Below are positions 3 through 4,362 of a stretch of DNA of 25,504 nt, piece by piece. Position 1 is the first letter of the stretch. Each line of letters begins with the position of its first letter. Source of the stretch: a virus (taxonomy: Duplodnaviria; Caudoviricetes); the IMG/VR virus record IMGVR_UViG_3300020413_000071, positions 1 to 25,504 of that record; one strand, given 5' to 3'. Made by a program: the position numbers and the translations under genes. The notes under the pieces were generated by a model. The model did no database searches. It worked only from the letters and a program-made list of their open reading frames with translations, and had not been told where the DNA came from.

Positions 3-107
3 AGATACGGTTATGTAGAGTTAACAAACACTGCATCATCACTTGGTAACGCGGCTGACTACGTTGGATTAGTAGCGATCACATCAGGAAACTTAAAATT
101 CAAGTAA
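3..107 (+). CDS. gp23: Major capsid protein, C-terminal end (partial, begins before the window)
   Basis: Frame 3 reads RYGYVELTNTASSLGNAADYVGLVAITSGNLKFK*, stop TAA at 105-107. The (T)RYG motif near the C-terminus is typical of T4 gp23-family capsid proteins, and a strong terminator follows. Not in the ORF track because it is truncated. Confidence 0.8.
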   Translation, partial: RYGYVELTNTASSLGNAADYVGLVAITSGNLKFK

Positions 108-189: not shown

Positions 190-765
190 ATGCATTATTG
201 CTTCCATCACATTCCTAAAACAGGTGGAAGCTCATTAAGGATAAGGCTTGAGGACCGTGCCGACAAGAAACAGATTAGCAAACTGGATTATGCAGTAGGA
301 CATAATACGACCATGAGAACACCAGGCACACATTTTGTTTGGTTGCGTCATCCGTTACACAGAGACATATCACAGTTCAACTATGACAACGGAAAAGGTG
401 AGGCAGAAGCCAAAACATTCGATGAACATTGTAGAAGATTAGCAGGAAATTTCATGACACTTTGGCTATACAAAAATTATCTGCTGTGTGATCCTAACGA
501 TGACATAGAAAGGAAATACGAAGCAGTACGTCATGCACTACAAACAAAATTCAAAAAAGTTTTTTGCATTGAAAATTTTGAACAAAGTTGGAACACTGTG
601 GCAGACATCCTTAATTTAGACAGAGAACCTAGGTTGAACACAAACAGAAGCAACGAGGACTATAAAAAATATGCTGACAAAAATAATCTGAGTAAAGAAT
701 TTATCGCATGGCATAAAAATTATAATCACTATGATTTTCAATTGTATCAAGAGTTTAGTGCATAG
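190..765 (+). CDS. Sulfotransferase-family protein (PAPS-dependent, Sulfotransfer_2-like)
   Basis: N-terminal FHHIPKTGGSSL matches the 5'-PSB loop (HIPKTGGTS), and WLRHP matches the 3'-PB (LRxP) motif. C-terminal N.YD..LY pattern is typical of this family. Confidence 0.7.
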   Translation: MHYCFHHIPKTGGSSLRIRLEDRADKKQISKLDYAVGHNTTMRTPGTHFVWLRHPLHRDISQFNYDNGKGEAEAKTFDEHCRRLAGNFMTLWLYKNYLLCDPNDDIERKYEAVRHALQTKFKKVFCIENFEQSWNTVADILNLDREPRLNTNRSNEDYKKYADKNNLSKEFIAWHKNYNHYDFQLYQEFSA

Positions 766-887: not shown

Positions 888-1121
888 ATGGATTATCTTA
901 ACAAAGTAAAAGGATGGGCAAAAGGAATTGCTGACGTAGGAGTAAGTTTCGTAGCGTTAGGAATTGTTTTAGAAATCCTTTTCAATGGTCAAGGTATTCC
1001 GTTCTGGCCAAATGTTTCTGTAATAGGAAACGTCCAGGGCGTACTGCAAGGCTTTTCAGATCAAGGATTGATCGGATTAGTAGCAGTTTGGATTTTATAT
1101 CATATCTACAACAGAAAATAA
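888..1121 (+). CDS. Small membrane protein (77 aa, two hydrophobic segments), function unknown
   Basis: Strong SD GGGAGG. Hydrophobic stretches VGVSFVALGIVLEILF and GLIGLVAVWILYHIY, basic C-terminus, and its own terminator. Confidence 0.8.
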   Translation: MDYLNKVKGWAKGIADVGVSFVALGIVLEILFNGQGIPFWPNVSVIGNVQGVLQGFSDQGLIGLVAVWILYHIYNRK

Positions 1122-1149: not shown

Positions 1150-1194
1150 ATGAGTGGTGTGACTACCTAAAAAATTTTCACACCACTCATTTTT
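1150..1194 (+). terminator. Terminator-like hairpin
   Basis: Perfect 13-bp inverted repeat ATGAGTGGTGTGA (1150-1162) / TCACACCACTCAT (1178-1190), followed by TTTT. Confidence 0.75.
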
Positions 1195-1223
1195 ATTAGC
1201 AGTTTATCTCTTAAAAAATTTAA

Positions 1224-1229
1224 TAAATA
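1224..1229 (+). promoter_or_regulatory. Late promoter core (TAAATA)
   Basis: AATAAATA, 5 nt before the structured leader that starts at 1235. Confidence 0.65.
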
Positions 1230-1234
1230 CACAT

Positions 1235-1323
1235 AGTTCAAACGTGCTTTGACACAAAGTCAAAGACTTATGCGGATAACCACCGCGTAGCCAGGAGAAC
1301 TGGCATTGGACTCCTAAAAGGAG
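1235..1323 (+). ncRNA. Putative structured cis-regulatory RNA leader (four-way junction plus SD-sequestering hairpin)
   Basis: Closing stem AGTTCAA(1235-41)/TTGGACT(1306-12). Hairpins CTTTGAC/GTCAAAG (1247-65), TATGCGG/CCGCGTA (1269-89) and GCCAG/CTGGC (1290-1304). CTCCT(1311-15) is complementary to SD AGGAG(1319-23). Confidence 0.6.
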
Positions 1324-1330
1324 AAAAAAA

Positions 1331-1765
1331 ATGGGAAGACCTATAAGAAAAGACAGAATGGTTAGCGGATCAAGTGACTTCGGCGCAGACAACGAAGGAA
1401 AGATCGGTGTAACGGCTTACAGAACGTTTGGTGGATCAAAAGTTGATTCTGCTACAGCGTACATTGTAGCACAGAGATCATCTAAGAATTTTAAACTTCA
1501 CTTAGACGATTCAACTGAGGTTGTAATGAATCTTAAAGCAGTTGCTCCAGGCTCTCTTGCCAACGACTCTAGTACTGGACTCGGTGAGTTCATGGTACAA
1601 GGTATCTTAGACGACTCAACTGTAGTTTACATCAGTAAGTTCCACAACAACACTGTACAATACGTTACAGCGGGTGGTGCCACTGGTAGTGGACCATATG
1701 TGAGAAATGCTGAAGGTACTGACGAAGGCCAAGTATCTGGTAAAGTTAACATCAACGTCTTGTAA
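1331..1765 (+). CDS. Hypothetical protein, probably virion structural (144 aa)
   Basis: SD AGGAG, late-promoter context, own terminator, G/S/T-rich beta-type composition. LDDSTxV occurs twice internally. Confidence 0.75.
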   Translation: MGRPIRKDRMVSGSSDFGADNEGKIGVTAYRTFGGSKVDSATAYIVAQRSSKNFKLHLDDSTEVVMNLKAVAPGSLANDSSTGLGEFMVQGILDDSTVVYISKFHNNTVQYVTAGGATGSGPYVRNAEGTDEGQVSGKVNINVL

Positions 1766-1785: not shown

Positions 1786-1813
1786 TGGGGGAGTTACACG
1801 CTCCCCCATTTTT
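1786..1813 (+). terminator. Rho-independent terminator
   Basis: Stem TGGGGGAG / CTCCCCCA followed by TTTTT. Confidence 0.8.
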
Positions 1814-1816
1814 CTA

Positions 1817-3540: not shown

Positions 3541-4362
3541 AAAACCACAATAAATACACTTGTTGACAGGATATCCATCCGGTGAGGGCAAGAAGGCCGG
3601 GGACAGTACGAGAACATTATGGCAGATAAAACACCGGTACGAGTAGTCTTTAACAGTTCAAATGTGGCCACTGGAATGGCGGAGTTCCAGACAGGTGAAA
3701 CTGTGCCCGTGGCAAATGGCGGTACAGGACTTGCATCTCTTGGATCGGCAGGACAAGTTCTCAGGACTAACGCGGCAGGAAATGCCCTAGAATTTGCAAC
3801 GCTTGAAGATCTAGCAGACATTATATCAGTAGGTTCAACATTAACAGCACCGTCGAATGCTGATTTTAATATAACCACAGCCGGCACCGGGAACATAGTG
3901 CTAAATGATTTAAGCATCAGCGATAATACTCTCTCTACAAACAGATCCAACGATGATCTAAACATCAACGCCAGTGGTACAGGAACAGTCATCCTCGAGA
4001 ACCTTAAAATAGGCACCAGTGGATCGACCGTAACAACAATATTGGACGAAGACAACATGTCCACTAACAGTGCTACAGCACTTGCAACCCAACAGTCAAT
4101 AAAAGCCTACGTAGATTCAGAAGTTGGTGCAGTAAGCACAACAGCTATAAGTCAACTCAACAGTAACGTCACAGTGGCAGACGCAGGATCAGGCACAATT
4201 ACAGTCACCGTGGATGGATCTACTATTGGAACTTTTAACGCATCAGGTTTACAGTTAGGAGGCTCGGGTGCAAGAGTAACAACTGTCTTAGACGAAGACG
4301 GATTTGGCACTAACAGTGATACTGCATTAGCAACACAGCAGAGTATCAAAGCATATGTTGAT
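2836..4362 (+). repeat. Three dispersed copies of a 29-aa motif VTT(I/V)LDEDxxxxNSxTALATQQSIKAYVD across two adjacent genes
   Basis: Copies at 2836-2922, 4030-4116 and 4276-4362, near-identical in protein and diverged at synonymous sites. Confidence 0.9.
3551..3556 (+). promoter_or_regulatory. Late promoter core (TAAATA)
   Basis: AATAAATA in the intergenic gap, followed by a GC-rich ~60-nt leader to ATG 3619. Confidence 0.6.

What the first reader, a model, noticed from the sequence alone, without database searches (positions are those of the whole stretch)
1235..1330. Four-way-junction RNA leader with a switchable Shine-Dalgarno
Seen in sequence: 5 nt after a late promoter core (1224-29), the leader can fold into a 7-bp closing stem (1235-41/1306-12) enclosing three hairpins of 7, 7 and 5 bp. 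That gives a ~78-nt cloverleaf-like shape with no tRNA D/T-loop consensus. CTCCT (1311-15) can pair with the SD AGGAG (1319-23), or with an identical AGGAG at 1293-97 in the third hairpin, and it overlaps the 3' end of the closing stem. Inference: these mutually exclusive pairings look like a riboswitch or protein-bound translational operator for the 144-aa gene, or a stand-alone small RNA. I do not recognise it as a known Rfam family.
Basis: partly seen in the sequence, partly recalled or inferred. Interest (0 to 1): 0.8.

Follow-up and report, generated by a model that had tools for sequence, protein, structure and literature searches.

The report
Freshwater-2 leader of phage virion gene
This folded stretch is a copy of a catalogued but unexplained RNA motif (Rfam freshwater-2) lying in front of a giant-phage gene whose relatives encode a protein of the virus particle; it likely works as a protein-bound control on how much of that protein is made, not as the three-way switch first proposed.

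Summary
The stems are real (z = -5.8), but 1248-1333 is a full-length member of Rfam RF02980 freshwater-2 (79.9 bits; cut-off 49.9), so 'not in Rfam' is wrong. The window is a fragment of an uncultured jumbo myophage whose kin have major capsid proteins closest to Phosso/PA5oct/GAP32. The motif lies between a TAAATA late-promoter box and the SD of an 'MGRP' gene in 100 of 102 protein-anchored and 95 of 104 start-codon-anchored leaders. Hairpins 2 and 3 show compensatory changes; UAUG/CGUA and the AGAAC loop are near-invariant. The switch is not supported: the 1293-97 pairing costs 8 kcal/mol and does not covary; closing stem and anti-SD hairpin coexist in the best fold; most relatives lack both. 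New here: MGRP homologs are virion proteins (Atu_ph07 gp498, PA5oct gp102), some fused to Ig or PA14 domains; three cultured homologs lack the RNA, and most late genes in this window look leaderless. Best reading: a protein-bound translational operator dosing an abundant virion protein (binder untested). An earlier scan note reached the same Rfam call on other DNA.

The parts
3..107 (+). C-terminal end of the major capsid protein gene (context)
   Evidence: Translation matches the C-terminus of the L188 capsid protein at 33 of 34 residues; that protein is 68-73% identical to capsid proteins of Phosso, PA5oct and GAP32
888..1121 (+). 77-aa hydrophobic ORF upstream, also upstream in close relatives
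   Evidence: no PHROG hit
1151..1195 (+). Inverted repeat followed by T-run, likely terminator of the 77-aa gene
   Evidence: sequence; similar repeat in L195 and L189; not listed by the terminator scan
1224..1229 (+). TAAATA late-promoter-like box; predicted +1 near 1235
   Evidence: 16 of 20 TAAATA sites in the window lie at gene starts by my reading, although the total count equals chance; box seen in 97 of 100 motif-bearing leaders; T4 TATAAATA spacing is recalled
1235..1241 (+). 5' strand of closing stem P0 (outside the Rfam model; subclade feature)
   Evidence: pair probabilities 0.15-0.88, falling to 0.03-0.19 when more coding sequence is folded; weak comparative support
1247..1265 (+). 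Hairpin P1, variable in sequence, conserved in pairing
   Evidence: stem of 5 bp or more in 80 of 97 leaders versus 31.5% of shuffles; 59 distinct stems; in Rfam model
1269..1289 (+). Hairpin P2, core: near-invariant UAUG/CGUA with a fixed U-G pair, covarying upper pairs
   Evidence: all 7 pairs kept in 97 of 97 leaders, with compensatory changes at two (the four outer pairs were required by the search pattern, which 100 of 102 leaders met)
1290..1304 (+). Hairpin P3 with conserved AGAAC loop motif
   Evidence: 4 of 5 pairs change on both sides; AGAAC in 222 of 229 pattern-selected leaders
1305..1315 (+). 3' tail module AUUGGACUCCU (3' strand of P0 plus anti-SD), optional in the family
   Evidence: 41 of 97 protein-anchored leaders; 20 of 95 start-anchored leaders
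1319..1323 (+). Shine-Dalgarno AGGAG
   Evidence: sequence; conserved in the Rfam consensus
1331..1765 (+). 144-aa MGRP-family gene, likely an abundant virion (surface) protein
   Evidence: profile match to Atu_ph07 gp498 (HHalign probability 98%, E 1.2e-13), found in virions with 23 peptides and 75.5% coverage; PA5oct gp102 annotated structural by ESI-MS/MS (E 3.4e-16)
1786..1814 (+). Intrinsic-terminator-like hairpin after the gene, followed by the next TAAATA at 1819

Best explanation
The element is a member of the Rfam freshwater-2 motif and is the predicted 5' leader of a late transcript for a likely abundant virion protein; it likely acts as a protein-bound translational operator that sets the dose of that protein. 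Shown: family membership, covarying hairpins, position between the TAAATA box and the SD, near one-to-one link to MGRP genes, virion location of cultured homologs. Inferred: transcription starts near 1235; stacked P2 and P3 present near-invariant bases (UAUG/CGUA, AGAAC) to a protein; because P3 lies within about 20 nt of the SD, a bound protein would hinder 30S loading, and in this window's subclade would also stabilise the weak CUCCU:AGGAG hairpin. Untested guess: the binder is the MGRP protein itself when free capsid sites run out, or another head protein.
For: Rfam hit 79.9 bits over the whole model. Core in 100 of 102 protein-anchored unique leaders and 95 of 104 start-codon-anchored ones by strict pattern. 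One copy each in three large contigs, one 99% complete; in a tandem MGRP pair only the first gene carries it. Compensatory changes in P2 and P3: 64 cells versus 17.3 shuffled, 0 of 500 (related sequences inflate this). Base identity is fixed inside a paired stem and in a loop while P1 varies freely, which is more than stability needs. Loop end to SD is 4-21 nt. Homologs are virion proteins. Autogenous control of abundant proteins at structured leaders (T4 gp32, MS2 coat, ribosomal proteins) is established knowledge, recalled.
Against: No binding or expression data. The MGRP N-terminal arm is equally conserved in Atu_ph07, Phosso and PA5oct, which have short 28-31 nt box-to-ATG leaders and no RF02980 match over cut-off, so the arm is no sign of RNA binding. 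One uncultured relative (L195) has lost the whole leader. The fold resembles SH3/KOW/Tudor barrels only weakly (Z up to 4.5). The anti-SD hairpin is weak (2.0 kcal/mol to open here; 2.58 versus 1.73 for shuffled tails), and it is broken at its middle pair in 14 of 19 tail-bearing start-anchored leaders scored.
Confidence: 0.5

Rival explanations
1. Constitutive expression booster: the leader supplies a strong SD plus 5'-terminal hairpins that protect the mRNA or form a compact tertiary fold that helps ribosome loading, with no regulation.
For: Most late genes in this window appear leaderless (7 with TAAATA 4-8 nt before ATG), while sheath, tube and this gene have SD leaders. P0 begins at the predicted +1. 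In the GGCUCU variant P0 keeps the SD open (0.18 versus 1.29 kcal/mol for shuffled tails). Most 'short' leaders have an accessible SD (18 of 94 paired).
Against: Plain stabilisers do not need invariant bases inside a stem; in the window's type the SD is predicted paired in 46 of 46 leaders.
Confidence: 0.28
2. The leader is cut off and works in trans as a small RNA (decoy or assembly RNA).
For: Two RNA-library contigs from two studies span about 1235-1318 only (84 nt each; one identical to the window). High sequence conservation.
Against: No terminator between the motif and the SD. Another identical RNA-library contig runs from 1287 into the coding region to 1355. Contig ends coincide with positions that vary between strains, and contigs cannot show RNA ends. 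The motif was not seen away from an MGRP start.
Confidence: 0.1
3. One reading: a ligand or protein toggles CUCCU between the SD, AGGAG 1293-97 and the closing stem (riboswitch-like).
For: CUCCU is complementary to both AGGAG copies; a CU(C/U)CU tail 3-6 nt before the SD recurs in 119 of 122 tail-selected leaders (a set biased by my pattern); in CUUCU types, UUCU could pair with the AGAA loop as a pseudoknot (inspection).
Against: The 1293-97 pairing has probability 0.00 and costs 7.9 kcal/mol; 76.1% paired versus 75.0% shuffled; absent from 67 of 97 leaders. P0 and the anti-SD coexist. 75 of 95 start-anchored leaders have no tail. Leader types are scattered on the protein tree (25 changes, minimum 4; quick tree). 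A late virion gene is an unlikely metabolite target (inference).
Confidence: 0.08
4. The structure acts in DNA (cruciform or protein site) rather than RNA.
For: Inverted repeats next to a promoter.
Against: The fixed U-G pair and G-U substitutions keep pairing only on the + strand; position is tied to box and SD.
Confidence: 0.04

Closest known systems
Rfam RF02980 freshwater-2 RNA (type Cis-reg)
   Same: Full-model match 1-84 at 1248-1333, 79.9 bits; same three hairpins, SD and AUG.
   Different: The window adds a 5' extension and closing stem P0 outside the model, and a CUCCU anti-SD that the model leaves unpaired. The link to jumbo-phage late promoters and a virion protein is not in the Rfam line shown; the original supplement could not be read, so it may already mention gene context.
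Autogenous translational operators (T4 gene 32 leader, MS2 coat hairpin, ribosomal-protein leaders); recalled
   Same: Structured leader next to the SD of a gene for an abundant protein.
   Different: No sequence or structure match; binding by the gene product is not shown here.
T4 late-gene RBS-sequestering hairpins (genes e, soc, 49); recalled
   Same: Hairpin over the SD of a late gene.
   Different: Those hairpins form only on early transcripts and are removed by starting at the late promoter; here all stems lie downstream of the late box.
Atu_ph07 gp498, PA5oct gp102, Phosso gene 429 (MGRP proteins)
   Same: Homologous N-terminal domain, TAAATA box and SD upstream; virion-associated in the first two.
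   Different: Short leaders without freshwater-2; genes not next to the capsid gene; extra C-terminal domains.

Membership tests
RF02980 freshwater-2 | Covariance-model score above the gathering threshold over the full model | tested here: met
   79.9 versus 49.9 bits, positions 1-84 of 84, E 5e-11; no hit in 14 control genomes
RF02980 freshwater-2 | Three consecutive hairpins, central UUAUGCGG/CCGCGUA, AGAAC loop | tested here: met
RF02980 freshwater-2 | Followed directly by AAGGAG and an AUG | tested here: met
   1319-1333
Riboswitch | Conserved alternative pairing (expression platform) across the family | tested here: not met
Riboswitch | Specific ligand binding with a conformational change | not testable with these tools
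   needs in-line probing
Autogenous translational operator | Structure within the ribosome-loading region of the regulated gene | tested here: met
   P3 loop end 4-21 nt from the SD
Autogenous translational operator | Gene product binds the leader and represses translation | not testable with these tools
   no RNA-protein tool; fold similarity to nucleic-acid-binding barrels is not significant
tRNA or tRNA-like element | Cloverleaf with D and T arm consensus | tested here: not met
   ARAGORN 0 genes; no tRNA family in cmscan
Stand-alone small RNA | Own terminator or discrete 3' end | tested here: inconclusive
   no terminator-like site before the SD; only contigs available, which cannot show RNA ends
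Capsid decoration protein (downstream gene) | Abundant in virions | tested here: met
   by homology: gp498 in all 13 gel bands, 23 peptides, 75.5% coverage
Capsid decoration protein (downstream gene) | Known decoration fold or location on the capsid exterior | tested here: inconclusive
   no PDB match; Ig and PA14/GLEYA fusions in relatives suggest surface display

The most novel reading that the evidence does not exclude
Freshwater-2 is the autogenous operator of a capsid-surface protein in a large group of uncultured jumbo phages: free MGRP protein binds the P2-P3 core of its own leader and shuts off translation once capsid sites are filled, giving an orphan Rfam motif a function and the Rak2-like phages a stoichiometry-sensing circuit with interchangeable tail modules.
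Probability: 0.27. Interest if true: 0.65.

Novelty: new member of a known kind. Interest (0 to 1): 0.33.

Why it matters
The RNA itself is catalogued, so its discovery value is low. What is gained is context for an orphan motif: it is the late-promoter leader of one specific virion-protein gene in hundreds of jumbo-phage contigs, with natural variants (short, CUCCU, CUUCU, CUACU, GGCUCU, leaderless) and cultured relatives that lack it. That turns 'function unknown' into a simple reporter and binding experiment with a named candidate ligand. Searches of the held library found no paper on the motif ('freshwater-2' with 'RNA motif': 0 papers; 'freshwater-2' alone: 14 unrelated listings; decoration protein / own mRNA / repression: 0).

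Tried and rejected
Sequence searches of the window protein and leader against cultured phages: no match; homologs were reached only through a relative and Foldseek on BFVD. PHROGs, Pfam and PDB gave nothing for the MGRP domain; VIA best Z 4.5 to SH3/KOW/Tudor barrels, not significant. GTDB scan with a loose pattern was swamped by chance matches; 2 of the 120 loci had a paired P2 and neither looked like the leader, so it says nothing on absence from bacteria. RegA (PF01818) was not found in 5 records, but no control rang. TAAATA is not enriched by count; only its position is informative. Pseudoknot ideas (5' GUUC with loop GAAC; tail with P2 loop; GUGC with GCAU) had no support by inspection, and the nested versions scored probability 0.00. 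RNA runs held only small shares of the stretch and were contigs; two contigs starting at or near 1235 are at most a weak hint; a second read-laying was not available, so transcript ends stay open. Complex prediction for an MGRP trimer was not available. MAFFT put the GUCAGAU-type 5' ends out of register, so P0 was counted by script instead and RNAalifold did not recover P0 or P1. The looser pattern caught some false cores, so its P2 counts are not used. The tree is a quick tree with long-branch warnings. One search excluded AUAGGAC tails and so undercounted the CUACU variant; one search corrected this.

Full report
Observation. The stretch 1235-1333 folds at -32.6 kcal/mol, z = -5.83, with 0 of 200 shuffles as stable; the reverse strand gives z = -2.98. 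The three hairpins have pair probabilities of 0.9-1.0; the closing stem P0 is 0.15-0.88 and drops to 0.03-0.19 when 30 more coding bases are folded.

Identity. cmscan gives a full-length hit to Rfam RF02980 freshwater-2, type Cis-reg, at 1248-1333: 79.9 bits against a gathering score of 49.9, E 5e-11; 14 control genomes give none. The model covers the three hairpins, the SD and the AUG, but not P0, and leaves CUCCU unpaired. I recall the family as coming from the 224-motif screen (PMC5737381); its main text has no occurrence of 'freshwater' (passages seen) and its supplement could not be read, so what was published on its gene context is unseen. In PMC10690425 I saw passages, and a search of its supplements found no mention, with three files not searched.

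Genome context. The window is a 25.5-kb virus record with tail sheath, tube, neck, head-closure and terminase genes and the end of the major capsid gene at 3-107. The capsid protein of a close relative (L188) is 68-73% identical to those of Phosso, PA5oct, GAP32 and CBB, so this is a Rak2-like jumbo myophage group. TAAATA occurs 20 times, as chance predicts, but by my reading 16 sit at gene starts, and at least 7 genes have only 4-8 nt between box and ATG with no SD. That supports a late promoter with +1 near 1235 (inferred; the T4 spacing is recalled) and makes this 96-nt leader an exception. A terminator-like hairpin follows the gene at 1786-1808; none lies between the motif and the SD.

Distribution. 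Among 102 unique leaders anchored on the protein (the window plus 161 loci), 100 hold the core; the exceptions are L195, where the gene is leaderless, and L275, the second gene of a tandem pair whose first gene has the RNA. These alignments were seeded from RNA-bearing loci, so I also sampled by start codons alone (which scanned 9 of 64 parts of the collection): 95 of 104 unique leaders match the strict core; of the other nine, six show variant cores on inspection, two follow directly on other coding sequence, and one lacks it. Three large contigs hold one copy each. The capsid gene ends within 2.5 kb upstream in 69 of 80 loci with enough flank. Cultured Atu_ph07, Phosso and PA5oct have TAAATA and an SD 28-31 nt from the ATG and no match over cut-off.

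Covariation. In 97 scored leaders all seven P2 pairs are kept: C-G 90, G-U 4, G-C 3 at one position; G-C 87, U-A 7, A-U 3 at the next; the four outer pairs were demanded by my pattern. On a 31-sequence alignment chosen for having the tail and a 5' GUC, 4 of 5 P3 pairs and 2 of 7 P2 pairs change on both sides. P1 reaches 5 bp or more in 80 of 97 leaders against 31.5% of shuffles, with 59 different stems. P0 is weaker: among 73 of 122 tail-bearing leaders with a 5' GU(U)C, one pair switches A-U (52) to G-C (16), another is broken in 18, and in the start-anchored sample that pair is A-G in 16 of 17. A GGCUCU variant closes the junction in a shifted register (13 of 13), which suggests a closing stem matters in this subclade.

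The proposed switch. Forcing 1293-97 to pair with 1311-15 gives -28.2 against -36.1 kcal/mol, probability 0.00; across 31 sequences it is paired in 76.1% of cells against 75.0% shuffled, with two of its five pairs broken in 16; the inner AGGAG is present in 30 of 97 leaders. P0 and the anti-SD share only two bases, and the best fold holds both. The SD hairpin is predicted in 46 of 46 CUCCU leaders but is weak: 2.0 kcal/mol to open here, and 2.58 against 1.73 for shuffled tails in 12 leaders. In the start-anchored sample 75 of 95 have no tail, and 14 of 19 scored tails read CUACU, which breaks the middle pair. On a quick tree of 179 proteins the five leader types need 25 changes against a minimum of 4, so the tail is gained, lost or swapped often.

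The regulated gene. The 144-aa protein has no PHROG, Pfam or PDB match. Its model (pLDDT 82) matches BFVD entries from Atu_ph07 and fHe-Yen9 phages. The family profile matches Atu_ph07 gp498 (probability 98%, E 1.2e-13), which the supplement of PMC6102473 lists in all 13 gel bands with 23 peptides and 75.5% coverage (part 3 of 3 read, plus main-text passages), and PA5oct gp102, annotated structural by ESI-MS/MS. The family has 1,296 clusters at 50% identity; of 20 long members scanned, six carry PA14/GLEYA, one an Ig and two an FCCH domain. Related jumbo capsids carry unassigned decoration layers (passages of PMC7247149 and PMC5646251). A surface or decoration role is therefore likely but not shown.

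Expression. RNA-library contigs cover the leader, one identical over 1235-1318 and one identical over 1287-1355 into the gene. Contigs cannot show ends, strand or level, and DNA may be present, so this is a weak hint only.

Mechanism and verdict. Fixed bases inside a stem and in a loop, beside a freely varying P1 and within about 20 nt of the SD, fit a protein-binding operator best (0.5), possibly autogenous; a constitutive booster or stabiliser is the main rival (0.28), then a processed sRNA (0.1), a ligand switch (0.08) and a DNA-level role (0.04). No binding was tested. The element is a new member of a known motif; the added value is its assignment to a late virion gene and a clear experiment. 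Interest 0.33.

Noticed in passing
window 180-23386: Many late genes appear leaderless: TAAATA followed 4-8 nt later by ATG with no SD (starts 190, 1832, 17554, 19768, 20305, 21781 terminase, 23386), while sheath, tube, fibre and MGRP genes have SD leaders. A 'leaderless' literature search gave 5 listings, none read.
   Followed up: partly
L195:2480-2503: An MGRP gene with no freshwater-2 leader at all: TAAATA, 8 nt, ATG, in otherwise the same gene order as the window. Could be a natural loss or an assembly error.
   Followed up: partly
L275:2022-2863; L621; L659: MGRP genes directly behind other coding sequence; in L275 a tandem pair in which only the first gene carries the RNA.
   Followed up: partly
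window 888-1121: Conserved 77-aa hydrophobic ORF between the capsid gene and the MGRP gene in close relatives, with its own TAAATA and SD; no PHROG hit; covered by RNA-library contigs.
   Followed up: no
window 190-765: 191-aa ORF starting MHYCFHHIPKTGGSS inserted after the capsid gene in some relatives only (L188); the HIPKTGG motif recalls sulfotransferase-like proteins (recalled, not tested in Pfam).
   Followed up: no
window 1331-1344: A 5-bp hairpin over the start codon is predicted; conservation not tested.
   Followed up: no
window 3557-3618: 62-nt G-rich leader before the 859-aa fibre-like gene; folds no better than shuffles (z 0.69).
   Followed up: yes
P0216, P0230, P0237, P0264, P0270, P0180, P0159: MGRP domain fused to PA14/GLEYA or Ig domains: an undescribed anchor domain for virion surface display is plausible.
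   Followed up: partly
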